A stretch of DNA of 64,000 bases from Candidatus Woesearchaeota archaeon (GTDB lineage Archaea > Nanobdellota > Nanobdellia > SCGC-AAA011-G17 > UBA489): positions 148,254 to 212,253 of the forward strand of contig CAYIXG010000001.1 of the NCBI GenBank assembly GCA_964367375.1. The letters are read 5' to 3'. A program made the position numbers and the translations under genes. Shown here piece after piece: positions 46,401 to 64,000 of this stretch (position 1 is its first letter; each line of letters begins with the position of its first letter). The notes below the pieces were generated by a model, which was not told where the DNA came from, did no database searches, and saw nothing but the letters and a program-made list of their open reading frames with translations.

Positions 46401-47339
46401 ATGAGACGAAAAATAATCAAGCAAGGAAACAATTCCTACACATTAACCATTCCTATTCACTGGATTAAGGAGCATAATCTGGACGGCAGCCAGGATGTGG
46501 AGGTGAATGAGGAAGATGGAAAACTAATGGTTGCAGTGCCATCAGAGATGAAACGGCCGGAAGTGTCATTAAATGTGGATATTAGCAAGTATAATGAGAG
46601 GACAATTAAGGTTGTGGTATTTCAAGCGTATCGGAAGGGATTTGATAAAATGATAGTGACCTATGGTGAGATGAAGCAGCTTGAGGTTGTGCGCTCTCTT
46701 GTTACCAATAGCTTGCTTGGCTTTGAGATTGTGAGCGAGGAGCAAAACAAGTGTGTCATCCAGAATATTGCAGAGCCTTCCTCTGAGAAGTTTGATATTA
46801 TTTTGAGGAAGGAAATGTTGTTGTTGAAGGAAGAAAGTCAAGAGATTTTGCAGCATCTGGAGAAGAACAAGTATGATATCAGAAGAAGGGAAGATATGAA
46901 GGTGATGTTTGACAAGTTAAACAATTTTACGAGAAGGGTGATTGTTCGGGACAAAATAGGAGGCACAAAAAATTCGTATTTTCTCTTTTATTTCACGTCA
47001 AAATTGTCATTGTTGTATCATGCCTATTTCTATTTCTACAAGGCGTATGCGCAAGAGAAGATGAAGAATGTGGACAAAGATATTAAGGAATTGCTCATTA
47101 AGGTGAATGAAAATTATGGGTTGTTATATGATGCTTTTTACAAGAAGAATTTGGATATTGCGCATCAAGTAAAGACAGGCTCTGAGGAGGCCATAAAAAG
47201 GGTTTTTGAGCTGATTGGAGAGAAAAAGGGGATGCAAAATAAGTTACTTATACATATTGCAAACATTGCGCGGGTGACTGCAATGGCATCTACCATTCTC
47301 TTTGGAATTTACTTTGCTGGTGAAGACTCAAGTAAGTAG
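46401..47339 (+). CDS. AbrB/SpoVT-domain plus PhoU-like helical domain regulator
   Basis: N-terminal swapped-hairpin motif KQGNNSYTLTIPIHWIKEHNLDGSQDVEVNEEDGKLMV. Helical C-terminal region typical of archaeal PhoU homologs. Confidence 0.5.
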   Translation: MRRKIIKQGNNSYTLTIPIHWIKEHNLDGSQDVEVNEEDGKLMVAVPSEMKRPEVSLNVDISKYNERTIKVVVFQAYRKGFDKMIVTYGEMKQLEVVRSLVTNSLLGFEIVSEEQNKCVIQNIAEPSSEKFDIILRKEMLLLKEESQEILQHLEKNKYDIRRREDMKVMFDKLNNFTRRVIVRDKIGGTKNSYFLFYFTSKLSLLYHAYFYFYKAYAQEKMKNVDKDIKELLIKVNENYGLLYDAFYKKNLDIAHQVKTGSEEAIKRVFELIGEKKGMQNKLLIHIANIARVTAMASTILFGIYFAGEDSSK

Positions 47340-47980
47340 GCGAGTTTTTTCGAGAGAGGGACAGCATCGCCTATTTTATGTTGAAGGGTGCGAATGCCTA
47401 GCGCGGCAGCAGCAGTAAGATTTCGTTCTTGGTCGTCAATAAATAAGCAGTCTTCTGGAGACAATCCGTGATCTTGAAGAATTCGTTGATATGCGTTTGG
47501 TTCTGGTTTGCGATGGCCAATTTCACAGGAGAAATAACTTCCATCAAAGAAGTCCATGTAATTATATCGTTCTCTATTTCCTCGAAGAATATCAGGATTG
47601 GTATTAGAAAGGATAAACACGCGATATCCTTCAGCTTTTAATTTTTGTGCAACATCAAGAGCATCAGGGTCTACATCAGTAATCAGCATTTCAAGCGCTG
47701 CTTGCATCGCTTTGATATTCTTTGGAGTAGGTTGCATTTTATGATGTTTCAAGACGCGAGACCAGAAATCAGTTGCTGATAATTCTCCTCGGGCGTATTG
47801 GTAGAGGGGGTTATCTGGAGCGTCTGTATAGAGGCGGAATGAGACAACAAGCTCTTCGGGTTTCAGAGCAGGATATCCAATGGATTGTGCAGCTCGGGCA
47901 ACCCGTTCCCAGTCGCTGTCTACCAAAACCTGCTCATTATCAAAAATGATCGCTTTTGGCTTGTTGTTGGTGTTTTTCAT
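47309..47980 (-). CDS. HAD-superfamily hydrolase (subfamily IA-like)
   Basis: Motif I AIIFDNEQVLVD, motif II ILSNT, motif IV FIDDQERN. Start placed at MKNTNNKPKAIIFD. Confidence 0.5.
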   Translation of the reverse strand: MKNTNNKPKAIIFDNEQVLVDSDWERVARAAQSIGYPALKPEELVVSFRLYTDAPDNPLYQYARGELSATDFWSRVLKHHKMQPTPKNIKAMQAALEMLITDVDPDALDVAQKLKAEGYRVFILSNTNPDILRGNRERYNYMDFFDGSYFSCEIGHRKPEPNAYQRILQDHGLSPEDCLFIDDQERNLTAAAALGIRTLQHKIGDAVPLSKKLAYLLESSPAK

Positions 47981-48245
47981 GGTCTTTTTACGAAAAGGCA
48001 TTTTATATGCCTTGCCGCTATAGAGAATATGCATGTTGGCTGTGTAAAATCATCAAGAAGGAAAAAGGGGAGTTTTCTCCTTTATAAGGCTTCCTATATT
48101 TTGTTACTAATAAGTGGTTACAATTAGAAAGGTTTAAAAGTAAGAAAAACCGCCAAAAAATAGACCAAACCGTGAAAATAGGAATATATTGAATAGCGGG
48201 AAGGTTTTAGTAAAAAAGGATTGAAAGTTACGTGAAAAATATTAT

Positions 48246-50171
48246 ATGGAAGCTCCTATACATCCATCGGAAGAAGAAAGATCTGGATTGTTAGCAAGAC
48301 TCAGAAACACAGGGAAGAAACTGTGGGAAAACGTTGAGCTGTATGTGGAGCAAAGAAGGCGGAAGCAAAAAGAGATGCGATTTCAAAGAGGAAGGGTAGA
48401 TTACGCATTATCATCCCTTGCAAATAGGATGCGAGTTGCAGTGTGGAACCATCCCACATTATTTACCTTAGCCACTGCAGTAACTACTGCGTTTACAAGA
48501 AAAGAGACAAATGATGAACAGATAGGCGTTGCTTTAGCATACGCTGTAGGTGCAGATTGTTTAAAATATATTATTAACAGAAATGTGCAAAAGGAGTCAA
48601 GAACTGCTGCAGAAAAAACTAATTTAGCAAAAATTATGGAGGTTGAATACTTAAACGAAATAATTCACCTTGTAAGAGAATATTACGGCCACAGAGGAGA
48701 AGTAGTGAGCATTGAGGAAGATACAGGGAAGCAGGATGGCACAGGTATTTTCAAGAGTGGCTATTCATCAAAAGTGCGGTTTAGATTTGCCGATGGAAAT
48801 ACTGCAGAAGTGTTCTATAAATATTCAGAAAAGCACGATCCAGGAAATGTAACAGCGGAGCGTGAAGGACGTTTCACAAATCTTTTACACGCTGCAGGGT
48901 TTGAATTTGTTCCACACGTGTTTATTCCATTTATGTCTAATTCAAGATTCATTAGATGGCTGAGAGGGGGCTGGAGCGATGAAGTGGAAGAAAAAGCTTC
49001 GCAACCAAATAGGGGTGTAGTATACGAATACATTGATGGAGAGACATTAGAAATGCGAGTTCGGGGAGAACACTCAAATGTTGATCAAAGAAAAATAATT
49101 CCTACAGCTACCGTATGCGAAACGTTTAGGCAGTTAGGGCAATTATACATGTTTGCAGGACAAGATAATGTGATTGGAGAGAAAGGGTTGTTTGGAGCAA
49201 GAGATGATGTTCCTCTTGAAGAGTACAGGTTCCACCATTCGCTTGTTTCTAAATTAGAAGGGGTTGGAGAAAAAGATTTTGCAAGAAGATTGAGGTTGGC
49301 GCATTTGCATACATTTAATGGTATTCCACTCACGATAGTACACGGTGATTTGCATCAAGGCAACATCATTGAAACCAGAAAAGGAAGTGTAAAGATTATT
49401 GACTGGGATAATGCAGCATTTGGCGTTCCATATGAAGATTTCTTCCATTTCGCAGTCATTTCCGATTTTGAAAGGAGCACGGATTTTGAAAAAGAAAGAA
49501 CTGCATTTGTGAAAGCGCAAGAAAAACAAGGAATTCACCTTTCTGAAGAACACTTAAAATTAATAGAGTTTGAGACATATCTGAGTTTATTCGCTCGATA
49601 TCAGCATGCGATAGTGAATGAAGAGATAAATGAAGAGTTTTGGGAGAACATGCATACTTCATGTAGGTATCTCTTAGAAGGTGCAAGAAAGTCAGTAACG
49701 CAATATGCGGATCTCACGGGAAATAGAGAATTAGCAGATAATTTTGAAAAGTTTGCTGAGAAAACTTTAGTAGAATCTATCACATCTTATAACCCATTAG
49801 CAAGCATTGCGTATGCGCACCGAGTGAATGCAAATGAAAGAAAGCTTGACAAAAGAGAAGCTGCGGTGGTAAACTTCACACGACACGCAGCCAGATTGGA
49901 AACAAGTTTACGCGCTGATCAAACATTGCGTGCAGTAGGAAGATTCGTGAAAGCAGGATTTGATATTGGATTACATTATGGCGCATATCACTTAATCAAA
50001 ACATGGGCTGAGTTGAATGCTGCAGGAAATTTGGATGGAGATGATATGAGTTTCACGACAAGGACTGTAGCAACACTAGGAGCTTTAGGAGTGTATGATT
50101 ATTTCTTCACTCCAATTCCTCGATGGATAAAGGCAGGTGTGCAGCGAGTATTCGGGAGAGAGGAGCATTAA
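48246..50171 (+). CDS. protein-kinase-like fold (APH/ChoK/CotS-type) kinase with N- and C-terminal hydrophobic extensions
   Basis: Brenner motif IVHGDLHQGNII and DWDNAAFGVPYEDF (DxD). 641 aa. Confidence 0.5.
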   Translation: MEAPIHPSEEERSGLLARLRNTGKKLWENVELYVEQRRRKQKEMRFQRGRVDYALSSLANRMRVAVWNHPTLFTLATAVTTAFTRKETNDEQIGVALAYAVGADCLKYIINRNVQKESRTAAEKTNLAKIMEVEYLNEIIHLVREYYGHRGEVVSIEEDTGKQDGTGIFKSGYSSKVRFRFADGNTAEVFYKYSEKHDPGNVTAEREGRFTNLLHAAGFEFVPHVFIPFMSNSRFIRWLRGGWSDEVEEKASQPNRGVVYEYIDGETLEMRVRGEHSNVDQRKIIPTATVCETFRQLGQLYMFAGQDNVIGEKGLFGARDDVPLEEYRFHHSLVSKLEGVGEKDFARRLRLAHLHTFNGIPLTIVHGDLHQGNIIETRKGSVKIIDWDNAAFGVPYEDFFHFAVISDFERSTDFEKERTAFVKAQEKQGIHLSEEHLKLIEFETYLSLFARYQHAIVNEEINEEFWENMHTSCRYLLEGARKSVTQYADLTGNRELADNFEKFAEKTLVESITSYNPLASIAYAHRVNANERKLDKREAAVVNFTRHAARLETSLRADQTLRAVGRFVKAGFDIGLHYGAYHLIKTWAELNAAGNLDGDDMSFTTRTVATLGALGVYDYFFTPIPRWIKAGVQRVFGREEH

Positions 50172-52067
50172 ATGACAAGAAGAAGACACACGTGGGCAGA
50201 TGAGCTGGGTGAAGAAAAAAAGAATCTGGTTCTTGATACTCTTTTATCAAAAATAGGAAGTGCTTCAAGAAAGTTTCATGAAGGACGATTTACCTTCACT
50301 ACAATAGGAGCAACATTGGGTGGATTAGATACGTTACTTTCTGGAGAGCTTGATTGGAAAGGTTTGGCATGGTTATTGGGTGGTGGATTAGCTTTCGATG
50401 CGTTAAAGGCAGGTGTTTATTACGTGAGAAACCAAGGGCAGATCAAAAAAATTAGAAACGAAAAAACAACAATTGGAAGGGTGATGGGCTCTGATTATTT
50501 AGAAGCGCTCATCACGAACATTCGAGAGTATGGATGTGCGCGAGGGGAGTGTGTGGCAATTGAAGAGCAGGTAAGCAACACAGAAGGTACAAACTTGCAC
50601 AGGGAGGGTTATACAATCTCGCTTATGTTCACGTTCGCAGATGGAACGCAAGTGCCAGCTTTTTTCAAGTACAACTACAGGCAGGGCAATGATGAGCATC
50701 CAGAGAATAATGGAAGAATAACGAGATTTTTGAGTGACAGAGGTCATTCGTTTGTGCCAAAAGTATTGAGTCCTGATATAGATGTATTAATGCAAGAACA
50801 GTTGTTTACTCTTGATAGGGAAAGAGGAACTGCTTCTCCAATAGAAGGTACAACAAACCGAGGATTGGTGTATGAATGGGTCAACGGTGCAAACTTGGAA
50901 TGGTTATTATACACGGAAAAAAATGTTGTGGTGAAAGGGAGCTTCAGGCAGAATACATTAAGTGTGAATGATATTCCTGTGGATGCACTTTTTGAGAATA
51001 TGTGGGAGGTGTATGAAGATGACTTGCGAGGATTTTTTTTACCTGCGAAAACAAGAACGTTTCACAATAGTTTAGTTGCAAAAATACAGCAAGCTTCACC
51101 AGAATTTGCATCTATAGTAGATAAGGTGCATAAAGAAACGATTACAGATGATGCATTGCTGTTGAAAGCGAGAATAATTCATGGTGATTTGCATCAAGGC
51201 AACATCATGGTAAATACAGGAGAAGTCATGACACACGGAATGTTTGGAACGCAGTTCACCGCAGCAGGGATTAAAGTATTTGATTGGGACAATGCGGAGA
51301 TTGGCATTCCTTATCAGGATTTCTTCCATTTTGCAGTTATTTCAGATTTTGAGAGAAGTGATGCATTTCCTGAAGCAAGAGCTAAATTCTTAAAAAAGCA
51401 GAAGAAAGTACTTCCTGGAGTGACTGAGGCGCAGACGAGATTGATCGAATTTGAAACCTATGTAAGTTTGCTCATGCGATATCATGCAGCAGTCGCAGAA
51501 AAAACGCTGAAGCCAGAGTTTGAGCAGAACATATTGACCTCATGCAGGTATTTGCTTGAGAAATCAAGAGCTGCAGTAGATGCGTTTGCTGCGACAACTG
51601 GAAATGATGGCATACGCACTGCATACGATCAATTTGTCAGGGAAAATCTGAGTGAAGTGGAAGCAACGCCATTTGATCAAAGTGCGAGCGTTGGCTATGC
51701 GCACACAGTTAATCATAAAGAGCGACGGATTAAAAATGGAGATTCATTAGCAGATGTGGTGCGGAAGAATCAGCAGGTCCATCAAAGAAGAATAGAGAGA
51801 AGAGTCAAGCAGACAAACCTTTATGGAAATATGCTATGGTTTGCAGCTGCATTAAACACGGCAGTCTACGCATATATAATGGGAGCGACATATGTTGGCA
51901 TGCAGGCAGGAAAGGTAAGTCAGGAGCACTTTTCTGAGGCTGCAGTGGATGGTGGGAAAGGTCTTCTTGCTATTTATGGATTGGCGTTACTTGGAAACAA
52001 CATTGATAGAATAGTAAGATGTGGGAAGCGAATGTATCACTGGTTTGCAGGGCAACGCAAATCATAG
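50172..52067 (+). CDS. protein-kinase-like fold (APH/ChoK-type) kinase, tandem paralog
   Basis: IIHGDLHQGNIM and FDWDNAEIGIPYQDFFHFAVISDFERS. Start directly abuts the upstream paralog's stop. Confidence 0.5.
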   Translation: MTRRRHTWADELGEEKKNLVLDTLLSKIGSASRKFHEGRFTFTTIGATLGGLDTLLSGELDWKGLAWLLGGGLAFDALKAGVYYVRNQGQIKKIRNEKTTIGRVMGSDYLEALITNIREYGCARGECVAIEEQVSNTEGTNLHREGYTISLMFTFADGTQVPAFFKYNYRQGNDEHPENNGRITRFLSDRGHSFVPKVLSPDIDVLMQEQLFTLDRERGTASPIEGTTNRGLVYEWVNGANLEWLLYTEKNVVVKGSFRQNTLSVNDIPVDALFENMWEVYEDDLRGFFLPAKTRTFHNSLVAKIQQASPEFASIVDKVHKETITDDALLLKARIIHGDLHQGNIMVNTGEVMTHGMFGTQFTAAGIKVFDWDNAEIGIPYQDFFHFAVISDFERSDAFPEARAKFLKKQKKVLPGVTEAQTRLIEFETYVSLLMRYHAAVAEKTLKPEFEQNILTSCRYLLEKSRAAVDAFAATTGNDGIRTAYDQFVRENLSEVEATPFDQSASVGYAHTVNHKERRIKNGDSLADVVRKNQQVHQRRIERRVKQTNLYGNMLWFAAALNTAVYAYIMGATYVGMQAGKVSQEHFSEAAVDGGKGLLAIYGLALLGNNIDRIVRCGKRMYHWFAGQRKS

Positions 52068-53077: not shown

Positions 53078-53141
53078 TAAATGTGGTTTATACATATTGG
53101 ATAATAGTAATCTATTAAAACTGGTTCTTGTTCCTCTCGGA

Positions 53142-54872
53142 ATGCACCAACCAGCGCAAAAAACGAAGTATATAGTTGTTCTCGGTGGAGTGTTATCAGG
53201 CGTTGGGAAAGGTGTTGCAACGGCTTCTATTGGAAAGATTTTGAAGGAATACGGCTTGTCAGTCACTGCAATGAAGATTGATCCGTATCTGAATTTGAAT
53301 GCTGGCACCTTAAGACCTACAGAGCATGGGGAAGTCTGGGTGACTGATGATGGCGGTGAGATTGATCAGGATCTTGGCAATTATGAACGATTTCTCGGGG
53401 TTGACATTCCGAAGAAGAATTGTATCACCTCTGGGCAGATTTACAAGACAATTATTGATAAGGAGATTGCTGGCGGGTATCTAGGAAAGACAGTGCAGTT
53501 TATTCCGCACGTGCCGGATGAGGTGAAGCGCAGGATAAATGATGCTGCCGATGGATTTGAGGTGTGCTTGATTGAAGTTGGCGGAACAGTGGGCGATTAC
53601 GAGAACATTCCCTTTTTGTTTGCGGTAAAAAGTTTGGAGCGAGAGTTAGGAAAGGAAAACATGATGTATGTGCTTGTGTCTTATTTGCCTGTGCCATCTC
53701 ATGTGGGTGAGATGAAAACCAAGCCAACACAAATGGCAGTGAAGTTGTTGTCTGAGCAGGGTATTTTCCCTGATTTTATTTTGTGCCGTGCGGCAAAGCC
53801 GTTAGATGAGATACGGAGGAAGAAGATCGAGCAGTATGCAAACATTCCTGCAGAGCATGTCATTTCTGCTCCGGATGTGGATACTATTTATTCCATTCCA
53901 TTAAATTTTGAGAAGGAAAATCTGGGTGAGAAGATTATGAATCAGTTGAAGGTAACGCCAAAAAAGAAGCTGTCGTGGGATAAGTGGAAGGTGCTTGTGG
54001 ATATTTTGAGGAGCGCGCAGAAGAAGGTGCATATTGCGATGATCGGGAAATATGTGGAGAGTGGTGATTTTGTACTTTCTGATTCATACATTTCTGTGAA
54101 TGAATCATTGAAGCACGCTGCTGCAGCAATTGGGATGGGCATCACAATTTCCTGGGTGGATGCAAAGGCATTGGAGCAAGAAGAGGATATCAACCAAATG
54201 CTTGAAAAGTTTGATGGGATTGTTGTTCCTGGAGGATTTGGAGCGACAGGCGTTGAGGGGAAAATAAATGCAATTCAGTATGCACGGGAGCACAAAGTGC
54301 CCTATTTGGGGTTGTGTTATGGGATGCAGCTTGCGGTTGTTGAATTTGCGAGAAATGTGTGTAATTTGAAAGATGCGCACACAACAGAAATTAGTAAAGG
54401 CTGTGCATCTCCGGTGATTGACCTTCTTCCGGAGCAGCAGCAGGTGAAGGAGATGAGTGGCACGATGCGTCTGGGTGCGTTTGCTGCTGTGTTGAAGGAA
54501 GGCACGCAAATTGCGCGTCTGTATCAAGAGACGAAACGTGTGGAGAAAGATCAGGTGCGGTTAGAAACGCTTCGCGAGAATGGTGAAACATTGAGATTAG
54601 GGAAACTTCCAGAAAAAGGGATAGTGATCTTAGAAAGGCACAGGCATCGGTTTGAGCAAAATCCGAAGTTTGTCAAGGCATTGGAAGATAAGGGTATGGT
54701 TTTTTCTGGCTATCACGAGCGTCAGGATGGCACAAGATTGATGGAGTTTATTGAGCTTCCCGGACAAACCTTTTTGGGAACGCAAGCGCATCCGGAGTTC
54801 AAGTCGCGGTTGGAAGATCCATCGCCGTTATTTCTGGGATTTGTGGAGGCTGCTGCCAAGCAGAAAGCTTAA
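53142..54872 (+). CDS. pyrG: CTP synthase
   Basis: KYIVVLGGVLSGVGKG N-terminus. GATase catalytic GLCYGMQ. Start placed at MHQPAQK (the ORF opens at 53097). Confidence 0.9.
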   Translation: MHQPAQKTKYIVVLGGVLSGVGKGVATASIGKILKEYGLSVTAMKIDPYLNLNAGTLRPTEHGEVWVTDDGGEIDQDLGNYERFLGVDIPKKNCITSGQIYKTIIDKEIAGGYLGKTVQFIPHVPDEVKRRINDAADGFEVCLIEVGGTVGDYENIPFLFAVKSLERELGKENMMYVLVSYLPVPSHVGEMKTKPTQMAVKLLSEQGIFPDFILCRAAKPLDEIRRKKIEQYANIPAEHVISAPDVDTIYSIPLNFEKENLGEKIMNQLKVTPKKKLSWDKWKVLVDILRSAQKKVHIAMIGKYVESGDFVLSDSYISVNESLKHAAAAIGMGITISWVDAKALEQEEDINQMLEKFDGIVVPGGFGATGVEGKINAIQYAREHKVPYLGLCYGMQLAVVEFARNVCNLKDAHTTEISKGCASPVIDLLPEQQQVKEMSGTMRLGAFAAVLKEGTQIARLYQETKRVEKDQVRLETLRENGETLRLGKLPEKGIVILERHRHRFEQNPKFVKALEDKGMVFSGYHERQDGTRLMEFIELPGQTFLGTQAHPEFKSRLEDPSPLFLGFVEAAAKQKA

Positions 54873-54898: not shown

Positions 54899-55258
54899 AT
54901 GTCACCATCAGAGCAGATTATTTATGAAGTAACAAATGGAGCAGTTCCTCCTTTGTACGAGCCGCGAAATCTGGAGCGTGTTGTTTTAAGCCAAAATGGA
55001 TGGCCTAATCAGGATGGGTTTTCGAGTGATAGAAGAGGAGCATTGATATGGGCGCATCGTGAAGGAGGAGTCACGATGCTTGGGTTTCATTTGTGTGGTG
55101 TGTCCTTGCAATATGTGCATCGTCCGCATAATGGAAGTGCATCTGTGTTGTTCAAAGCGATTGGTGAGCCTGAGTACATAGATCCTGTTGTGAACAGGTT
55201 TAGAGTGTTGGAAGAGACGTTTGTGGATCTTCCAGTAATGAAAAAGGCACGAGCATAA
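54899..55258 (+). CDS. hypothetical protein
   Basis: 119-aa ORF between pyrG and dut. Confidence 0.3.
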   Translation: MSPSEQIIYEVTNGAVPPLYEPRNLERVVLSQNGWPNQDGFSSDRRGALIWAHREGGVTMLGFHLCGVSLQYVHRPHNGSASVLFKAIGEPEYIDPVVNRFRVLEETFVDLPVMKKARA

Positions 55259-55696
55259 TCATCCGGTGCTGCCAAATCCGCCGCGTGTTTTTTTTGTGAT
55301 TTCATCCACTTCTTCAAAGTCAACTTTGGTTATCTTGACGAAAACTGCTTGCGCGATGCGTTCTCCTTTTTCGATGATGACGGGCTGGTCTGCGAAGTTG
55401 TATACTTGCAGTTGTAAAACATCGTCTGGGCCGCAGTAATCCTGGTCGATGATGCCAATGCCATGAGGAATGAGCAGGTTTTTCTTTCGGGGTGTGGAGG
55501 ATCTGGGAACAAGCACAAGCATATGATCTGGTGGTGTTTCAATGATGGTGTTTAAGGGAACAAGGGCAACTGTTTTAGGAGGAATAATTACTTCTTTCCC
55601 GCTCGTGAGGTCAAATGCTGCCGCTCCTTTTGTGTGGTATTGGGGTAAAGGAATGGTTTTGTCGATGCGTTTAATGGCGGCTTTCATGGATATCAA
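55259..55696 (-). CDS. dut: dUTP diphosphatase (trimeric dUTPase)
   Basis: All five dUTPase motifs: AAAFDL, RSSTPRK, GIIDQDYCG, GERIAQ, RGGFGSTG. Confidence 0.85.
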   Translation of the reverse strand: MISMKAAIKRIDKTIPLPQYHTKGAAAFDLTSGKEVIIPPKTVALVPLNTIIETPPDHMLVLVPRSSTPRKKNLLIPHGIGIIDQDYCGPDDVLQLQVYNFADQPVIIEKGERIAQAVFVKITKVDFEEVDEITKKTRGGFGSTG

Positions 55697-55853
55697 TTGA
55701 AGTGTGAAGAATAATAAATTTTGAATTGAAGTTTATAAAGATTATGGGAATGAAAGAGTGGCAATAAATATATGCACTTTGTTGGTCGTGTTGGAAATGA
55801 TATAATTACAAAGAAGATGTGTTTAAATAGGTAAGAAAGGTGATAGAAAAAAG

Positions 55854-57605
55854 ATGCCGTTAAAAAATTTTTCTGAGGAAGAAGCAGAGAAGATTCGCGC
55901 GTTTTTGTTTACCAATCCTCATGGAGACACGAGTTTTGTGTATCCACAGCAATTAGTTGCAGGGGAAGAGCTTTCTCCATTAATGGCTGCGTATTCGCGC
56001 ACGCATATTCCTTTTCAAGACAGAGTATTGCAATTTCTTGATGTTGAGAAGCCTGAGCAAACGCGGGGTTTTCTTCCCTTCATTGATCCGCTGGTGCAGC
56101 TGTTTCGGAATGCTGATGGGTCGCTTGTTGTCTCTCGGAAGACGCGGGGGTTTAATGAGGAGTGGGTGTTGAAGCATGGGCATAGTTCAATTAAGGAGGA
56201 GACTGCCTTGTTTGGATATTGTGAAGATGTTTCTGACATCACAGGGAAGCAAATCACCGGCCATCCATTAATAAAGCCGCAGGTGAAGTCAACGCGCTAT
56301 CTTTCCTATGGGAAAGTGTTGGAGCGTTCGCTTGATGATCCAGACATACGTTCTTTACCGAATGCAGATCGTATTCTTGAGCACATTGTTTTTCTGAATA
56401 AAAGATATCTTGAAGTTGCAGAGCAGCTTGCAACATTGGTGTGGGAGCATGCAGATACGAGAGAAGCAGTTGCGTTTCTCAGAAGTCCAGCAGTGGTAGA
56501 AAGGGAAGTGAGGCGGCGTTTTGAAAAAGCAGGAAAAAGTAACCCTTCAGAAGAAGAATGGAAAAAAGAATATAGATCTGTAGAGAAAGGGGTAGCTGAT
56601 GAGGGAATAAGGAAGGATGTTGCAAAAGGCGTTCTTGATGATGCGCGGGTGTATCTTCCTGCAGTGACACGAACGTCTATCGGATTCTCTGTTGATGCGA
56701 GAACCTTAGAAGATGTTATCATAAATCTTATTTCAAGTGAAAGACAGGAAGATCAAGAAAGAGGAAATGTGCTCTGGAGAGAGGCGAGAAAGATAGCTCC
56801 AGTGCTTCTTGGAGAGAGAAGTCATGTGAAAAGGGATGAGTGGAGAAGGGCAACAGAGAAGGAGCTGAGGGTGTATGTGGAGCGTAATCTTGGCCATTGT
56901 GATAGTGAAGAGAAAAGAAGAGTGCGTTTAATCACGCCGCGAGGGATTGATATAGATTCTGATATATGGAGCGCGACGGTGGTTGCGTTCCAGTATGCTG
57001 ATGCGTCTGTGTTGGATATATATACGCTAATGACAGAGGAGCATGCTGCTGACATTCTTGAGTTGGCACATAAGCACAGATCAGATCATGATGTGCTGCA
57101 TCCTGCGATTGCGCATAGTGGGTTTATGGTTGAGTTTTTGATGGGATATCATGCGTATCGTGATGTGTTTCGTCACAGAAGAGGTTCGAGAACGAATCAG
57201 CGGTTGACAACAATGCATGGGTTTGAGGTTCCGGAAATATTCAAGGTTTTTGGGATAGATGAAAGATACAAAGAGGATATGGAGAAAGCGGCGCAGGTCT
57301 ATGAAATGGTCAGGAGACAGGCAGGGATGCAGGTTGCGGAGAAGCTCGTTCCGTTTGGAGCATTGTGTCGGTCGTTGCATTCCTGGCAGGTCAATCAGAT
57401 GGGATATGTAGGAAGGTTGAGAAGTGACATTGCAAAGGGGAATCGGTCGTATGTGGAAGTAACACGAGAGCTCATGGCTGAAGTGGGAAAAGTGCTTCCG
57501 GAGACTGCAAAATATTTGAGGTATGATACGCGAGAATATCCTTCACACCTCTGGAAGGGTGCATATGAATGGTATGATGCGACGCAACGAGGGAAGGGAA
57601 AATGA
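55854..57605 (+). CDS. ThyX-like (flavin-dependent thymidylate synthase family) protein, long tandem/degenerate form
   Basis: The C-terminal half carries FRHRRGSRTNQ (RHRxxS). The N-terminal half carries KSTRY (SxRY-like). 583 aa against about 220-250 for canonical ThyX. Confidence 0.5.
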   Translation: MPLKNFSEEEAEKIRAFLFTNPHGDTSFVYPQQLVAGEELSPLMAAYSRTHIPFQDRVLQFLDVEKPEQTRGFLPFIDPLVQLFRNADGSLVVSRKTRGFNEEWVLKHGHSSIKEETALFGYCEDVSDITGKQITGHPLIKPQVKSTRYLSYGKVLERSLDDPDIRSLPNADRILEHIVFLNKRYLEVAEQLATLVWEHADTREAVAFLRSPAVVEREVRRRFEKAGKSNPSEEEWKKEYRSVEKGVADEGIRKDVAKGVLDDARVYLPAVTRTSIGFSVDARTLEDVIINLISSERQEDQERGNVLWREARKIAPVLLGERSHVKRDEWRRATEKELRVYVERNLGHCDSEEKRRVRLITPRGIDIDSDIWSATVVAFQYADASVLDIYTLMTEEHAADILELAHKHRSDHDVLHPAIAHSGFMVEFLMGYHAYRDVFRHRRGSRTNQRLTTMHGFEVPEIFKVFGIDERYKEDMEKAAQVYEMVRRQAGMQVAEKLVPFGALCRSLHSWQVNQMGYVGRLRSDIAKGNRSYVEVTRELMAEVGKVLPETAKYLRYDTREYPSHLWKGAYEWYDATQRGKGK

Positions 57606-58252
57606 AGATAGAAATCTTGCGAAGAATTCCTTTTTCTGAATTGGAAGATATGATAAGGCGTGTGCCGTTGAAGGGAAAGACTCCTGAGGGAAAAGATATC
57701 TTGGTATATCAGCATGCGCGGATTGCGCTGAAACAGCTTGAGGCTGGTGAGGTGAATCCGACAACGTTTTATCTGGTAAGAAAGAATATGGATGTGCAAA
57801 GAGAGATACGTGCATGCTTGCGTGCAGAGCATGGCATTGACAGTCTTCAGCTTGATGGCGCGTTGGAGATTCAGAATGATCAAGGAGAGGTGTGGACATT
57901 AACGCCTCCGATTGTTGAATTCACTTCAAGGATTGTGCACTATGTTGCGCAGCAGGGGGAGAAAGAGTGTGAAAGAAATGTAAAGATTGCAATTCCTATC
58001 GTTAATGATGGTGCGCATCGGGTTGCGCTCGCAAGGGATTTAGGAGTTCCTTTTAATGCAGTGGTTATTTCTGGCGCATTGGAGGCATTTCTCTTTTATG
58101 CGCATCCGAATGCGTGGGATGAAGTGCGTTTAGTTGATGCAGTTCCTGCACAAAGAGAGGAGAAGAAGTTATACATAAGAGACGACTGTTATTTCTTGTA
58201 TCGTGATTTTGGTGTATTGGGATGCGGAGCTCCGCGGAGTCCTCACAAATAA
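57602..58252 (+). CDS. ParB/sulfiredoxin-like (ParB N-terminal NTP-binding/nuclease fold) protein
   Basis: IPIVNDGAHRVALARDLGVPFNAVVI matches the DGhHR…ArelG core of the ParB/Srx fold. Stop overlaps the next gene. Confidence 0.45.
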   Translation: MKIEILRRIPFSELEDMIRRVPLKGKTPEGKDILVYQHARIALKQLEAGEVNPTTFYLVRKNMDVQREIRACLRAEHGIDSLQLDGALEIQNDQGEVWTLTPPIVEFTSRIVHYVAQQGEKECERNVKIAIPIVNDGAHRVALARDLGVPFNAVVISGALEAFLFYAHPNAWDEVRLVDAVPAQREEKKLYIRDDCYFLYRDFGVLGCGAPRSPHK

Positions 58253-58253
58253 A

Positions 58254-58871
58254 ATGGCAAAGCTCATTCATATTGTGGGAACATCAGGGTCTGGAAAGCA
58301 AACATTGCAGCAAGACCTTCGGCAAAGAGTTGAGCGTGCAGGTTTTGCTGTTGAGGAGATTGTTGAGCCTGGTCCGTTAGCGAGGTTCATTAAGGAATAT
58401 CGTCTCTCTCCAGAGAAAGACCCGTGGGTTGAAGTTGCATTGTTTACTGCAGATCGAACGATGACTTATGCACAAAAGATTCTTCCAAGAATACATGATC
58501 CAAATAGGGTGTTTGTGAGCGCTCGGGGATTGCCAGACACGATTGTCTATCAAGGGTTGATTGGAGGTGTGGATATTCCAATCATTATGAGGATGAATAG
58601 GCATATTCCTGAGTCTGATCTGTATCTTGTGCTTGTTGTGAGTGGAAATGTGGGTCATGAGAGGATACGGGCAAGATATTGTTCGAGTGGAAGAGATGAG
58701 CATAGGATAAGTCCGAACGAGCAGCCTGCTGCGATTGATAAATTAGCAGCAGAGTATCGAACGCTTCCTGATTTTTTTCATAATGTGCATGTGATTGATA
58801 CAACCTCTCTTTCTCCTGAGGAAGTGGGAGAAGCAGCGTGGAAAGAAGTTGAGAGTGTGTTGAAAAAATGA
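58254..58871 (+). CDS. divergent thymidylate-kinase-fold P-loop (d)NMP kinase
   Basis: P-loop IHIVGTSGSGKQT, ALFTADRTMTYAQ (Tmk FaaDR-like motif), lid region. Distinct from the canonical tmk at 63567. Confidence 0.5.
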   Translation: MAKLIHIVGTSGSGKQTLQQDLRQRVERAGFAVEEIVEPGPLARFIKEYRLSPEKDPWVEVALFTADRTMTYAQKILPRIHDPNRVFVSARGLPDTIVYQGLIGGVDIPIIMRMNRHIPESDLYLVLVVSGNVGHERIRARYCSSGRDEHRISPNEQPAAIDKLAAEYRTLPDFFHNVHVIDTTSLSPEEVGEAAWKEVESVLKK

Positions 58872-59521
58872 GTGAAAAAGAAGTGGATGTTGTTGGTTTT
58901 GATCTGGATAATACATTGTATACGCTTACAGAGGAAATGCAGTCCTGGATAAGGCAGAGGGTGTGTGTAGTTACAAGTGAAAGGTTGAGGAGAGATAGTG
59001 GTGAAGTGCAAAGGGAATTTGAAGAAAGGTATAAAGAGTTGCAGAGTGCGCGACGATCCCTCATGGCCTTAGGATTGCCAGAGGATGAATCTATAGACAT
59101 TGTGCAGCGTTGTTTAGAAGAGGAAGAAATAGTAGGATTCATCAAGAGGGATGAGCAGCTTGCTGCATTAATAGGTAAATTGCGAAAAGAATATGGGCTT
59201 TTTTTGATTACAGGAAGTAATGAAAAGCTCACAGGAGAAAAATTAAGAAGGTTGGGTGTGGAGAAAGAAGTTTTTTCAGTAATGGTGTGTGCAAACACTC
59301 AATACAGAAGGGAAGATGGCTCTGCATTTCACTATGTGTCTGCAGCGCTGCAAGTTCCTCATCAGCGGATGCTTTTTGTGGGTGATAGAGAAGCAGTTGA
59401 CATTCTTCCCGCAGCGCGATTAGGAATCAAAACAGCAATAGTAAATGGGCGTTCTGCGCATGCAACGTATAATTTGAGCACTCTTTATGATCTTGAAGGG
59501 ATTCTTTTAGCAAGAAGGTGA
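58868..59521 (+). CDS. HAD-superfamily phosphatase (nucleotidase-like)
   Basis: Motif I VVGFDLDNTLY (DxDxT). Confidence 0.6.
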   Translation: MSEKEVDVVGFDLDNTLYTLTEEMQSWIRQRVCVVTSERLRRDSGEVQREFEERYKELQSARRSLMALGLPEDESIDIVQRCLEEEEIVGFIKRDEQLAALIGKLRKEYGLFLITGSNEKLTGEKLRRLGVEKEVFSVMVCANTQYRREDGSAFHYVSAALQVPHQRMLFVGDREAVDILPAARLGIKTAIVNGRSAHATYNLSTLYDLEGILLARR

Positions 59522-59525
59522 ATGG

Positions 59526-60086
59526 TTAATCTTGGCTGATTTTGCTTGCCCCTGGCCCGACAGATTTCAGATATTTTGAATCTGGTCGTTTATCATAGGG
59601 TGTGCTGGTGGGAGTGCTGAGTTTGTCAAATGTGATTCTGCAGATGCGTGATCCTGGCCAGAGCTTGATGGGAACTTTTGCAATGTTCACAATTTCCAGG
59701 GTAATATTGCCTTCGAATCCGGGGTCAATGGATCCGGCTGTGGAGTGAATCACCAATCCTAATCGTGCGAGTGAGCTTCTTCCATCGAGCCGTCCGACAA
59801 GGTCATAGGGGAGCTTGACGTATTCCTTTGTGCTTCCGAGGACAAGTTCTCCAGGATGGATGACAATAGAGTTACCTTCGTCAATAAGGAAGCTGTGCAT
59901 GTGGTGGTCTTTCACGCCTTCTTTGGTGTCGATGTGGGTTAAGTCATTGTATTTGTACATCTTAAATTGGGAGCTTAAATGGAGATCAACAGATGCCATG
60001 GAGATGCATTCGGGCAGGTGATCTTTAATTAACAGAGCTCCAGAAGAAAGGTATTTTTTGATGTCAATGTCGCTTAAGACTACCAT
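59526..60086 (-). CDS. dcd: dCTP deaminase
   Basis: 186 aa. LPYDLVGRLDGRSSLARLGL…AGSIDPGF matches the Dcd/dUTPase-like jelly-roll motifs. Confidence 0.8.
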   Translation of the reverse strand: MVVLSDIDIKKYLSSGALLIKDHLPECISMASVDLHLSSQFKMYKYNDLTHIDTKEGVKDHHMHSFLIDEGNSIVIHPGELVLGSTKEYVKLPYDLVGRLDGRSSLARLGLVIHSTAGSIDPGFEGNITLEIVNIAKVPIKLWPGSRICRITFDKLSTPTSTPYDKRPDSKYLKSVGPGASKISQD

Positions 60087-63566: not shown

Positions 63567-64000
63567 TATGAAAATTGTTTCTTTTGAAGGAATTGATGGT
63601 GCTGGTAAAACAACGCAAACGAGACTGCAATACGATCGTTTAGAACAAGAAGGTCTATCTGTTGGTGTATATTCGTATAGTAATAAAAATAATAGATGGG
63701 GAAGGATCATTAGAAGAATGTATACATTGGATGCGCCGACACCGTTTGACTGGTTTTTTCGGAGGAGAGGAGTGCAAGAGGTATTATACTCCCTTTCTGC
63801 TCGACATAATTTGAAAGAATCTGGTTTATCTGGAAGAGACGTTGTTATATCAGATAGAAGTATTGTGACTGCATATGCAAGCCATATAGATCAAGTGCCA
63901 GAATGGTTCATATCTTTTGTGGAGCCTTCTTTCGTGCCTAATTTAGTTGTTTTTTTAGATGTTCAACCTCAAGTAGGTTTAGAGAGAATAAGCGGAAGGG
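63567..64000 (+). CDS. tmk: thymidylate kinase (3' end outside window)
   Basis: MKIVSFEGIDGAGKTTQ P-loop, ISDRSIVT, VVFLDV. Confidence 0.8.

What the first reader, a model, noticed from the sequence alone, without database searches (positions are those of the whole stretch)
57602..58871. ParB/sulfiredoxin-fold protein translationally coupled to a divergent Tmk-fold kinase
The ParB N-terminal fold (DGxHR…A…G) binds CTP or ATP and can have nuclease or phosphotransfer activity. Here a 216-aa ParB-like protein has a stop overlapping the start of a P-loop kinase with the thymidylate-kinase FaaDR motif, and both sit downstream of the ThyX-like gene. Such a pairing is not a known housekeeping arrangement. 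It could be a nucleotide-modifying or nucleotide-sensing pair.
Basis: partly seen in the sequence, partly recalled or inferred. Interest (0 to 1): 0.55.

Follow-up and report, generated by a model that had tools for sequence, protein, structure and literature searches.

The report
ParB-like enzyme inside thymidylate operon
In a tiny symbiotic (DPANN) archaeon, a small uncharacterised ParB/sulfiredoxin-fold protein sits in a conserved four-gene operon with a thymidylate synthase, a thymidylate kinase and a phosphatase, and relatives in many bacteria keep the same company, so it is probably an unrecognised enzyme of DNA-precursor (dTMP) metabolism.

Summary
Bases 57602-58252 encode a 216-aa ParB/Srx-fold protein with an invariant NDGAHR motif. 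It passes the Pfam threshold for PF24392, "ParB-CE" (ParB-like catalytic effector). A Tmk-like P-loop kinase follows after a 1-nt spacer, not an overlap.

The real unit is a four-gene operon: tandem ThyX-like synthase, ParB-CE, Tmk-like kinase, HAD phosphatase. ATGA overlaps join genes 1/2 and 3/4.

In 20 DPANN genome loci the module is kept every time the contig reaches far enough. Fusions tie the parts together: Tmk-HAD in 8 loci, Tmk-ThyX in one locus, and ParB-CE-HAD in one protein.

Distant family members in CPR, a gammaproteobacterial symbiont and soil or sediment bacteria lie next to HAD, Tmk, ThyA, a ThyA-like protein, DHFR, dCTP deaminase or dCMP deaminase. The link is therefore to dUMP/dTMP metabolism, not to ThyX itself or to defence.

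Best guess, inferred and not shown: ParB-CE and HAD form a phosphohydrolase pair that strips pyrimidine dNTP/dNDP to the dNMP used by the synthase. The kinase is probably an ordinary dTMP kinase.

Rivals are a phosphotransferase role, an NTP-gated regulator, and a non-canonical pyrimidine pathway. No ParB-CE protein has been assayed, as far as I could find.

Verdict: new variant of a known, computationally defined family. Interest is moderate to high.

The parts
55822..55829 (+). TTTAAATA, a possible archaeal TATA box about 25-30 nt upstream of the ThyX-like ATG; lies in the 157-nt divergent spacer shared with dut
   Evidence: Read directly from the sequence. Inference only, not tested.
55854..57605 (+). 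Gene 1: tandem ThyX-like flavin-dependent thymidylate synthase, 583 aa. The N half keeps HGHSSIKE and Q.KSTRY. The C half keeps FRHRRGS.
   Evidence: Pfam Thy1 E 8.8e-16 with two stretches. Scanned separately, the halves give E 3.4e-11 and 1.3e-3. AF2 pLDDT 91.6 and the top 50 PDB hits are all ThyX. Motifs from the family alignment.
57602..58252 (+). Gene 2: ParB-CE (ParB/Srx-fold 'catalytic effector') protein, 216 aa. Its start overlaps the gene 1 stop (ATGA).
   Evidence: PF24392 E 3.9e-14. AF2 pLDDT 94.2. ParB/Srx fold hits. Invariant D136 G137 H139 R140 E106 P102 P103 Y36 Y57 W172 R201.
58254..58871 (+). Gene 3: Tmk-like P-loop kinase, 205 aa counted from the conserved ATG, 1 nt after the gene 2 stop.
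   Evidence: PF02223 E 4.4e-16. TIGR00041 scores 69.5 bits, below its 83.25 cut-off. Tmk structures match at E 2e-10. Start codon fixed by the orthologue alignment.
58868..59521 (+). Gene 4: HAD-superfamily phosphatase, 217 aa, with the FDLDNT catalytic motif. Its start overlaps the gene 3 stop (ATGA).
   Evidence: PF00702 E 4.7e-12 and PF13419 E 1.8e-9. Weak matches to pyrimidine 5'-nucleotidase models TIGR01993 and YjjG.
55259..55696 (-). Flanking dUTPase (dut), divergent from the operon.
   Evidence: PF00692 E 4.6e-25. NF001862 scores 106.3, above its cut-off of 103.
59526..60086 (-). Flanking dCTP deaminase (dcd), convergent with the operon; ends 4 nt after the HAD stop.
   Evidence: PF22769 E 8e-42. 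TIGR02274 scores 192.7, above its cut-off of 92.8.
53097..54872 (+). CTP synthase (pyrG), upstream pyrimidine-metabolism neighbour.
   Evidence: NF003792 E 6.5e-202.
63568..64000 (+). Second Tmk-like gene, which runs off the window (215 aa in L001). P-loop FEGIDGAGKTT.
   Evidence: PF02223 E 2.8e-24.

Best explanation
The window comes from a DPANN archaeon. Genes 55854-59521 form one operon devoted to thymidylate: a tandem ThyX-like synthase (dUMP to dTMP), a ParB-CE protein, a Tmk-like kinase (dTMP to dTDP) and a HAD phosphatase.

Shown:
- The ParB-like protein belongs to Pfam family ParB-CE.
- It has a ParB/Srx fold with an intact, invariant D-G-x-H-R nucleotide-phosphate motif.
- It has no DNA-binding or dimerisation domains.
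- It is inherited together with the other three genes.
- Across archaea and bacteria, family members sit next to, or are fused with, HAD phosphatases, Tmk, thymidylate synthases of both unrelated types, and dCTP/dCMP deaminases.

Inferred:
- ParB-CE is a catalytic nucleotide phosphohydrolase working with HAD as a two-enzyme cascade. The pair removes the outer phosphates from a pyrimidine deoxynucleoside tri- or diphosphate (dUTP/dUDP or dCTP/dCDP).
- This either supplies the monophosphate that the synthase needs, or keeps dUTP/dUDP made by the promiscuous kinase out of DNA.
- The kinase then commits the dTMP product to dTDP.
For: Family and fold:
- Pfam PF24392 above threshold.
- AF2 pLDDT 94 with only ParB/Srx-fold matches in PDB and BFVD.
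- Residues P102 P103 E106 D136 G137 H139 R140 W172 R201 are more than 95% conserved over 133 diverse representatives.

Co-inheritance in DPANN (20 loci):
- ThyX-like lies directly upstream in 19 of 19 loci with enough sequence.
- Tmk is present in 20 of 20: 18 downstream, one fused to ThyX, one after HAD.
- HAD is present in 19 of 20; the remaining contig is truncated.

Fusions:
- Tmk-HAD in 8 loci.
- Canonical Tmk fused to tandem ThyX in L015.
- ParB-CE-HAD, HD-ParB-CE and ParB-CE-NUDIX fusions. All the fused partners are nucleotide phosphohydrolases.

Other clades:
- CPR and other bacteria: Tmk<-DCD<-NUDIX | DHFR->ParB-CE | <-HAD<-ThyA.
- Ca. Kentrum and soil bacteria: ThyA-like+pterin-binding domain -> HAD -> ParB-CE.
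- HAD->ParB-CE->DCD.
- dCMP/cytidine deaminase directly upstream of ParB-CE in 13 loci.
- Tmk->ParB-CE and HAD->ParB-CE with overlapping stops and starts.
- 24 of 32 metagenome loci with at least 1.5 kb on both sides have such a neighbour.

Precedent for a 'CE + HAD' cascade: in PUA-Calcineurin-CE-HAD, HAD converts dNTP to dNDP and the CE domain converts dNDP to dNMP (preprint 10.64898/2026.01.15.699771).
Against: - I found no biochemical data for any ParB-CE protein, so the direction of the chemistry is pure inference.
- This genome already has a bona fide dUTPase and a dCTP deaminase flanking the operon. No step of the textbook route is visibly missing.
- The characterised small-molecule enzymes of this fold transfer phosphate (sulfiredoxin, the serine kinases SerK and SbnI; cited in PMC12704722) or act as NTP switches (ParB). 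They are not bulk hydrolases.
- A kinase and a phosphatase fused in one protein is odd for a simple linear pathway.
- The absence of dut beside ParB-CE in the other 106 loci rests on a single tblastn query.
Confidence: 0.45

Rival explanations
1. ParB-CE is a phosphotransferase (kinase) rather than a hydrolase. It would use ATP or CTP to phosphorylate a pyrimidine deoxynucleoside (dU/dC/dT to dNMP, a salvage entry into the synthase) or dTDP (to dTTP, replacing nucleoside-diphosphate kinase). Small symbionts may lack these steps.
For: - The known small-molecule enzymes of the ParB/Srx fold are phosphotransferases: Srx, SerK and SbnI (PMC12704722).
- Many extra invariant basic and aromatic residues lie outside the ParB core: Y36, Y57, Y166, W172, K188/K189, Y191, R201, R212. 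They could form a second, acceptor-nucleotide site.
- The hosts are mostly reduced symbionts: DPANN, CPR and Kentrum.
- In this window every other textbook step (Dcd, Dut, ThyX, Tmk) is already covered.
Against: - The partners by fusion are hydrolases (HAD, HD, NUDIX), not kinases.
- A nucleotidase next to a nucleoside kinase would create a futile cycle.
- Family members also occur in free-living soil bacteria that presumably have ndk and tdk.
- There is no sequence similarity to SerK or SbnI chains in the PDB.
Confidence: 0.2
2. ParB-CE is an NTP-gated switch or sensor, as ParB is for CTP. It would bind a pyrimidine (d)NTP and allosterically tune the synthase, kinase or HAD phosphatase to balance the dTTP pool.
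For: - The ParB-type nucleotide pocket is conserved.
- Gene 2 is translationally coupled to the synthase gene by an ATGA overlap.
- It co-occurs with enzymes that are classic allosteric control points, dCMP deaminase and Dcd.
Against: - Acidic and basic catalytic-looking residues (E106, D136, H139, R140) are near-invariant over a very diverse family.
- The protein associates with two structurally unrelated synthases, ThyX and ThyA. A specific protein-protein regulator is therefore less likely.
- Fusions to hydrolases suggest consecutive catalysis.
Confidence: 0.15
3. The module makes and channels a non-canonical pyrimidine deoxynucleotide. This would be like phage T4 gp56 dCTPase + gp42 synthase homologue + gp1 kinase, or the SPO1 dTMPase. 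The divergent synthase, the kinase with altered sugar-binding residues, an NTP-stripping ParB-CE and a nucleotidase would together replace or modify a base in DPANN DNA.
For: - The synthase is highly divergent: TIGR02170 scores 27 bits against a cut-off of 88.
- The ThyX motif is split between the two halves.
- The kinase family has Ser for the canonical P-loop Asp and A/D-R-G for DR(Y/F).
- A second Tmk-like gene lies 5 kb away.
- In soil bacteria ParB-CE/HAD sit by a ThyA-like protein while a canonical ThyA lies nearby.
Against: - In L015 the same module carries a fully canonical Tmk (FDGIDGCGKT, DRF) fused to the tandem ThyX.
- In CPR loci ParB-CE/HAD accompany an ordinary ThyA, DHFR and Tmk.
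- No second thymidylate synthase was seen in the window.
- The family has no relatives in IMG/VR or PHROGs.
Confidence: 0.07
4. It is a conflict (defence) effector that depletes nucleotides on infection, as the family name suggests.
For: - The family is named 'catalytic effector'.
- One member lies in a defence island beside QatB/TatD, a PNP_UDP-NB-ARC STAND protein and a DCD-kinase protein.
Against: - No PADLOC match.
- There is no sensor or regulatory partner.
- The position is fixed and syntenic within a metabolic operon in 20 small genomes.
- Most sampled members are in pyrimidine-metabolism or other housekeeping contexts.
Confidence: 0.05

Closest known systems
Pfam PF24392 'ParB-CE' (ParB-like catalytic effector domain). 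To my knowledge it was defined computationally by Nicastro, Burroughs, Iyer & Aravind, NAR 2023 (gkad879). That paper is not held in the library; the attribution rests on my memory of its abstract and on the neighbouring Pfam entry HD-CE, PF24391.
   Same: It passes the family threshold. It has the same core motifs (PP..E, D-G-x-H-R) and the same small single-domain size. It shares the partnership with HAD, HD and NUDIX phosphohydrolases.
   Different: The family is presented as nucleotide-degrading effectors of immune systems. Here the gene is a fixed part of a thymidylate operon in reduced archaeal genomes, with no sensor or defence genes. The DPANN subfamily also has an extra hairpin at residues 112-128.
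PUA-Calcineurin-CE-HAD anti-phage module (preprint 10.64898/2026.01.15.699771)
   Same: A 'CE' phosphoesterase is paired with a HAD phosphatase. That pair acts on deoxynucleotides as a two-step cascade, dNTP to dNDP to dNMP.
   Different: The CE domain has an unrelated fold (calcineurin-like versus ParB/Srx). That module is ligand-triggered, forms filaments, is toxic and lies in defence islands. This one is operonic with biosynthetic enzymes.
Sulfiredoxin and the free serine kinases SerK and SbnI (ParB/Srx-fold phosphotransferases)
   Same: Same fold. They are small proteins without HTH or dimerisation domains. Srx has a PPI..(hairpin)..G-x-H-R layout similar to PPIVE..NDGAHR (Srx sequence from my own memory).
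   Different: There is no detectable sequence similarity. Ala replaces the catalytic Cys of Srx. The genomic context is different.
Canonical ParB/Noc CTPase DNA clamps
   Same: Shared N-terminal nucleotide-binding fold, with the best structural matches to Noc, ParB-CDP and PadC.
   Different: No HTH, no C-terminal dimerisation domain, no ParA partner, and no GERRxRA box.
Phage T4 dNTP toolkit (gp56 dCTPase/dUTPase + gp42/Td synthase + gp1 dNMP kinase); comparison from my own knowledge
   Same: The same logic of an NTP-stripping enzyme, a thymidylate-synthase-family enzyme and a dNMP kinase encoded together.
   Different: The NTPase fold is different (MazG-like). That system is viral and this one is cellular. 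No evidence here for a modified base.

Membership tests
Pfam PF24392 ParB-CE | Score above the curated gathering threshold over most of the profile | tested here: met
   53.3 bits against a threshold of 23, covering profile positions 14-146 of 147. All 80 close homologues carry the same precomputed Pfam hit.
Pfam PF24392 ParB-CE | Conserved catalytic-looking core (PP..E and D-G-x-H-R) | tested here: met
   P102 P103 E106 D136 G137 H139 R140 are at least 97% conserved in 133 representatives and invariant in the DPANN subfamily.
Pfam PF24392 ParB-CE | Effector position in a conflict or immune system | tested here: not met
   No PADLOC hits. The neighbours are pyrimidine-metabolism genes. Only 1 of the 8 individually looked-up distant members is in a defence island.
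Pfam PF24392 ParB-CE | Nucleotide phosphohydrolase activity | not testable with these tools
   Needs enzyme assays. I found no assay of any family member.
Canonical ParB (partition/Noc CTPase clamp) | HTH DNA-binding domain, C-terminal dimerisation domain and GERRxRA box | tested here: not met
   The protein is 216 aa with a single domain. No ParBc or HTH Pfam hit and no NCBIfam hit. The motif is DGAHR.
Sulfiredoxin | Catalytic Cys in the G-C-H-R motif | tested here: not met
   By motif register (no significant alignment supports it), the corresponding position is A138, Ala in at least 90% of sequences. No sequence match.
DndB/DpdB (DGQHR domain) | Match to DGQHR/DndB models and dnd or dpd neighbours | tested here: not met
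   No NCBIfam hit at E <= 0.01. No dnd or dpd genes nearby.
SerK/SbnI free serine kinases | Sequence relationship to solved SerK/SbnI chains | tested here: not met
   The family profile finds no PDB sequence at E <= 10. Only the general fold is shared.
Thymidylate kinase (Tmk) | Pfam PF02223 above threshold, P-loop GxxGxGK[ST], LID arginines | tested here: met
   59.6 bits against a threshold of 27. P-loop GTSGSGKQT. LID region ERIRARY..GRDEHR. Tmk structures match at E 2e-10.
Thymidylate kinase (Tmk) | Equivalog-level score (TIGR00041) and canonical P-loop Asp plus DR(Y/F) motif | tested here: not met
   69.5 bits against a cut-off of 83.25. Ser replaces the P-loop Asp, and SARG replaces DR(Y/F). 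The Ser is kept across the DPANN kinase family.
Thymidylate kinase (Tmk) | dTMP as preferred substrate | not testable with these tools
   Indirect support only: a canonical Tmk is fused to the ThyX of the same module in L015.
ThyX (flavin-dependent thymidylate synthase) | Thy1 domain and ThyX fold | tested here: met
   PF02511 scores 58.7 bits against a threshold of 24.8. The top 50 PDB fold hits are all ThyX, probability 1.0.
ThyX (flavin-dependent thymidylate synthase) | Contiguous RHRxxxxxxxSxRY motif and equivalog score | tested here: not met
   TIGR02170 scores 27.2 against a cut-off of 87.9. The motif is split: the N half has GHP.......STRY and the C half has RHR.......RLTT (family consensus LLTT).
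HAD phosphatase | DxDxT nucleophile motif and HAD Pfam match | tested here: met
   FDLDNT at residues 11-16. PF00702 and PF13419 are above threshold.

The most novel reading that the evidence does not exclude
The four genes are not ordinary dTTP synthesis. They would be a cellular counterpart of the phage base-replacement toolkit. A divergent tandem ThyX would make a non-canonical 5-substituted pyrimidine dNMP. The Ser-P-loop kinase would phosphorylate it specifically. ParB-CE and HAD would destroy the competing canonical nucleotide. DPANN (and some CPR) DNA would then carry a modified pyrimidine, and ParB-CE would be the first ParB/Srx-fold enzyme of nucleotide-pool editing.
Probability: 0.07. 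Interest if true: 0.85.

Novelty: new variant of a known kind. Interest (0 to 1): 0.58.

Why it matters
dTMP synthesis is one of the best-studied pathways in biology. Here a conserved protein of unknown activity is locked into the thymidylate operon of an entire archaeal radiation. Its relatives sit beside ThyA, ThyX, Tmk, HAD, DHFR and dCTP/dCMP deaminases in many bacteria.

If ParB-CE and HAD prove to be a dedicated dNTP/dNDP-to-dNMP converter, or a new kinase, three things would follow:
- An enzyme step would be added to pyrimidine deoxynucleotide metabolism.
- The housekeeping ancestor of a family now annotated as an immune effector would be identified.
- It would help explain how ultra-small symbionts with slow ThyX enzymes manage dUTP and dTTP pools.

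The experiment is simple: four small soluble proteins and standard nucleotide LC-MS.

Tried and rejected
Searches that found nothing useful:
- A sequence search of the PDB with the ParB-CE family profile gave no hit at E <= 10.
Residue-by-residue mapping to Srx or ParB is therefore not supported.
- Scanning IMG/VR for relatives gave none. PHROGs gave none. PADLOC gave none for ParB-CE.
- Literature searches for 'ParB-CE', 'PF24392', 'ThyX'+'ParB', 'Calcineurin-CE'+'ParB', 'HD-CE'+'ParB', 'ThyX'+'DPANN' and 'ParB-like catalytic effector' found nothing relevant.
- The naming paper (NAR 2023, gkad879 / PMC10681802) is not held. I cannot say whether it already mentions the thymidylate-synthase association.

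Tools or tests that failed:
- The broad alignment A3 was too divergent for a metagenome scan.
- hhalign of the N half against the C half of the ThyX-like protein was not significant (E 0.11). The duplication rests on Pfam hits to each half and on motif positions.

Ideas considered and rejected:
- A partition ParB: there is no HTH and no ParA.
- A ThyX-specific protein partner or a flavin or NADPH helper: relatives accompany the unrelated ThyA.
- A folate-biosynthesis pyrophosphatase: no fol genes in the neighbourhoods, whereas Dcd, dCMP deaminase and Tmk recur.
- Simple replacement of dUTPase: this genome has a good dut.


Full report
**1. Observation**

The + strand ORF at 57602-58252 encodes 216 aa containing IVNDGAHRVALARDLG. 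It matches Pfam PF24392 'Parb-CE' at E 3.9e-14, 53.3 bits against a gathering score of 23.

The next ORF carries the P-loop GTSGSGKQT and the motif LFTADR. It matches Pfam Thymidylate_kin (E 4.4e-16) and solved Tmk structures (Aquifex 2pbr, E 1.9e-10).

The stop is TAA at 58250-58252. The start conserved among orthologues (MAKLIH.VG) is the ATG at 58254, one base later. Only an unconserved GTG at 58203 would overlap.

The true ATGA overlaps join the upstream ThyX-like gene to the ParB-like gene (57602-57605) and the kinase to a downstream HAD hydrolase (58868-58871).

The transcription unit is therefore four genes, 55854-59521. It is bounded by a divergent dut (55259-55696, minus strand) and a convergent dcd (59526-60086, minus strand). 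CTP synthase lies further upstream. A TTTAAATA about 25 nt before the first ATG may be the archaeal promoter (inference).

**2. Source organism**

Close homologues are annotated Woesearchaeota, Pacearchaeota or Nanoarchaeota. Identical contigs come from a 0.1-um groundwater fraction. The window has no tRNA or Rfam hit. This is a DPANN archaeon.

**3. The ParB-like protein**

- An AlphaFold2 model built on 21 homologues is confident (pLDDT 94.2, pTM 0.89).
- Foldseek against the PDB returns only ParB/Srx-fold proteins in the top 24. These are Noc 7ol9, pNOB8 ParB 5k5d, Atu1540 2hwj, human sulfiredoxin 3cyi/1xw3/7lj1, ParB-CDP 6sdk and PadC 6ryk. The hits are remote: E 0.04-0.5, probability up to 0.96, target-normalised TM about 0.5-0.57 on Srx.
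- The viral structure library gives the same answer.
- Sequence methods find no solved relative. hhalign to Srx is not significant.
- The protein is single-domain. It has no HTH, no dimerisation domain, and no NCBIfam or PADLOC match.
- Within the DPANN subfamily, D136 G137 H139 R140 A144, P102 P103 E106, Y36, F56 Y57, Y166 A167 P169 N170 W172, K189 Y191, R201 and R212 are invariant.
- An exhaustive profile search finds 649 cluster representatives, mostly free-standing proteins of 190-230 aa.
- Over 133 diverse representatives, Y36 Y57 P102 P103 E106 D136 G137 H139 R140 W172 R201 stay at least 96% conserved. Residues 112-128 are a hairpin insertion of the DPANN-type clade.
- UniRef calls members 'ParB-like catalytic effector domain-containing protein'.
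- Rare fusions join the domain to HAD, HD or NUDIX domains.

The pocket is intact.

**4. Co-conservation in DPANN**

A scan of one genome per species found 21 loci. In the 20 archaeal loci:
- The ThyX-like gene is directly upstream in all 19 with enough sequence.
- A Tmk-like gene is present in all 20. It is downstream in 18, fused to the N terminus of the tandem ThyX in L015, and placed after the HAD in L023.
- A HAD is present in 19. The exception is a contig that ends 328 nt after ParB-CE.
- In eight loci the kinase and the HAD are one polypeptide of 371-394 aa.
- P0162 is a ParB-CE-HAD fusion.

These 'Rosetta stone' fusions link all four activities.

**5. Beyond DPANN**

- The Saccharibacteria locus L024 has a tandem ThyX -> ParB-CE -> HAD, with Tmk and Dcd divergent.
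- Two bacterial contigs, one of which also carries ribosomal-protein genes (L027), show Tmk<-DCD(<-NUDIX) | DHFR->ParB-CE | <-HAD<-ThyA.
- Ca. Kentrum and many soil and sediment contigs show a roughly 500-aa ThyA-like protein with a PterinBD-DUF4346 domain -> HAD -> ParB-CE. A 1050-1185-aa protein ending in a second ParB-CE domain often follows, and sometimes a canonical ThyA.
- Another clade has a dCMP/cytidine-deaminase-family gene immediately upstream.
- Others show HAD->ParB-CE->DCD, Tmk->ParB-CE, or HAD->ParB-CE.
- Of 32 metagenome loci with at least 1.5 kb on both sides, 24 have such a neighbour within 1.5 kb. Six of the other eight sit near ddl (the remaining three neighbourhoods, two of them duplicates, were not annotated), not near defence genes.
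- Only one looked-up member lies in a defence island.

The common denominator is the dUMP/dTMP branch of pyrimidine deoxynucleotide metabolism. HAD is the most constant partner. Because ThyA and ThyX are unrelated folds with different cofactors, ParB-CE is unlikely to be a synthase-specific subunit or a flavin helper.

**6. The kinase**

- It keeps the P-loop lysine, the EPG motif, the F.ADR arginine, the R of the DR(Y/F) motif, YQG and LID arginines.
- It falls below the TIGR00041 equivalog cut-off, 69.5 against 83.25.
- Like all DPANN orthologues, it has Ser in place of the canonical P-loop Asp, and D/A-R-G/S in place of DR(Y/F).
- A second Tmk-like gene starts at 63568.
- These deviations leave room for an altered substrate. 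However, L015 carries a fully canonical Tmk (FDGIDGCGKT, REPY, TDRF, YQA; Pfam 118 bits) fused to the ThyX of the same module. The simplest reading is therefore a dTMP kinase.

**7. The synthase**

- The 583-aa protein matches Thy1 with two stretches. The halves score E 3.4e-11 and 1.3e-3 separately.
- The model (pLDDT 91.6) hits only ThyX structures.
- The family alignment shows complementary motif loss. The N half reads GHP-x7-STRY (RHR lost, SxRY kept) and keeps HGHSSIKE. The C half reads RHR-x7-RLTT (family consensus LLTT; RHR kept, SxRY lost).
- In homotetrameric ThyX these two motif parts reach one active site from different subunits (established structural knowledge, from my own memory). 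The tandem protein would then be a pseudo-heterodimer with half the sites.
- A direct profile comparison of the halves was not significant.

**8. Mechanism**

*Shown:* family membership, fold, conserved pocket, operon structure, co-inheritance and fusions.

*Inferred:* ParB-CE is catalytic and acts on the phosphate chain of a pyrimidine deoxynucleotide together with HAD. The closest experimentally supported analogy is the PUA-Calcineurin-CE-HAD defence module. There HAD converts dNTP to dNDP and the CE domain converts dNDP to dNMP. Transposed here, HAD plus ParB-CE would turn dUTP/dUDP (or dCTP/dCDP) into the monophosphate consumed by the synthase. They could also recycle dUDP/dUTP made by the kinase. 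Tmk would then commit dTMP to dTDP.

*Against:*
- This genome has its own dut and dcd.
- The known small-molecule enzymes of the fold are phosphotransferases or switches.
- Nothing has been assayed.

I put this model at about 0.45. The rivals are a kinase role at 0.2, an NTP-gated regulator at 0.15, a non-canonical-pyrimidine pathway at 0.07 and a defence effector at 0.05.

**9. Comparison with what is known**

The protein is a member of Pfam ParB-CE by score and motifs. It does not share the family's advertised immune context. It is not a canonical ParB, a sulfiredoxin, a DndB or a SerK (see the membership table).

A 2025 survey of the ParB-CTPase fold does not mention thymidylate or ThyX. 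My literature searches found no description of this operon. The paper that named the family could not be read, so prior mention there cannot be excluded.

**10. Verdict**

The finding is best described as a housekeeping, thymidylate-linked variant of a computationally defined ParB-fold 'catalytic effector' family. Its chemistry is unknown but readily testable. Interest is 0.58.

Noticed in passing
window 55854-57605: The ThyX-like synthase is a tandem of two ThyX-like halves. Each half keeps one half of the ThyX motif: the N half has GHP..STRY and the C half has RHR..RLTT (family consensus LLTT). This implies a pseudo-heterodimer with half the usual active sites. The same tandem form occurs in a Saccharibacteria locus (L024, 540 aa).
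   Followed up: partly
L015:4992-7286: A 764-aa protein fuses a canonical thymidylate kinase to a tandem ThyX. It lies upstream of ParB-CE and HAD.
   Followed up: partly
window 63568-64000 (continues in L001:8390-9037): A second Tmk-like gene with a canonical P-loop (FEGIDGAGKTT) but without the usual REPGG and YQG motifs. It follows GFO/IDH/MocA oxidoreductase, DegT aminotransferase and an unknown 365-aa gene. Two NUDIX genes follow it. It may belong to a sugar-nucleotide cluster.
   Followed up: partly
L056:3657-10828 and L064:3519-9677 (soil/sediment metagenome contigs): A ThyA-like protein with a PterinBD-DUF4346 domain -> HAD -> ParB-CE -> a 1050-1185-aa protein whose C terminus is a second ParB-CE domain -> canonical ThyA. 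The large protein has no other Pfam match.
   Followed up: partly
L025:7976-8752: In Ca. Kentrum a calcineurin-like (Metallophos, weak hit) gene follows ParB-CE. The cluster therefore holds three different phosphoesterase types.
   Followed up: no
L029:127-9624: One ParB-CE member sits in a defence island. Its neighbours are a KAP NTPase, QatB, TatD, a PNP_UDP-NB-ARC STAND protein and a protein with DCD plus kinase domains.
   Followed up: no
window 47309-48034 (-): A second HAD hydrolase in the window. It is 33% identical to the HAD that sits between ThyA and ParB-CE in the bacterial locus L027.
   Followed up: no
window 48246-52067: Two adjacent large genes (641 and 631 aa) with APH/choline-kinase-like phosphotransferase domains. 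A 319-aa ORF with no family match follows them.
   Followed up: no
window 1-64000: GC skew (G-C)/(G+C) is positive in every 2-kb bin (0.08-0.34), including stretches that code on the minus strand. This is unusually strong and one-sided for 64 kb.
   Followed up: no
L001 (identical to window 55.2-64 kb): The public gene calls for this contig list small plus-strand ORFs where the minus-strand dut and dcd genes lie. Those two genes would be missed by annotation-based surveys.
   Followed up: no
window 54899-55258: A 119-aa ORF between CTP synthase and dut has no Pfam or NCBIfam match.
   Followed up: no
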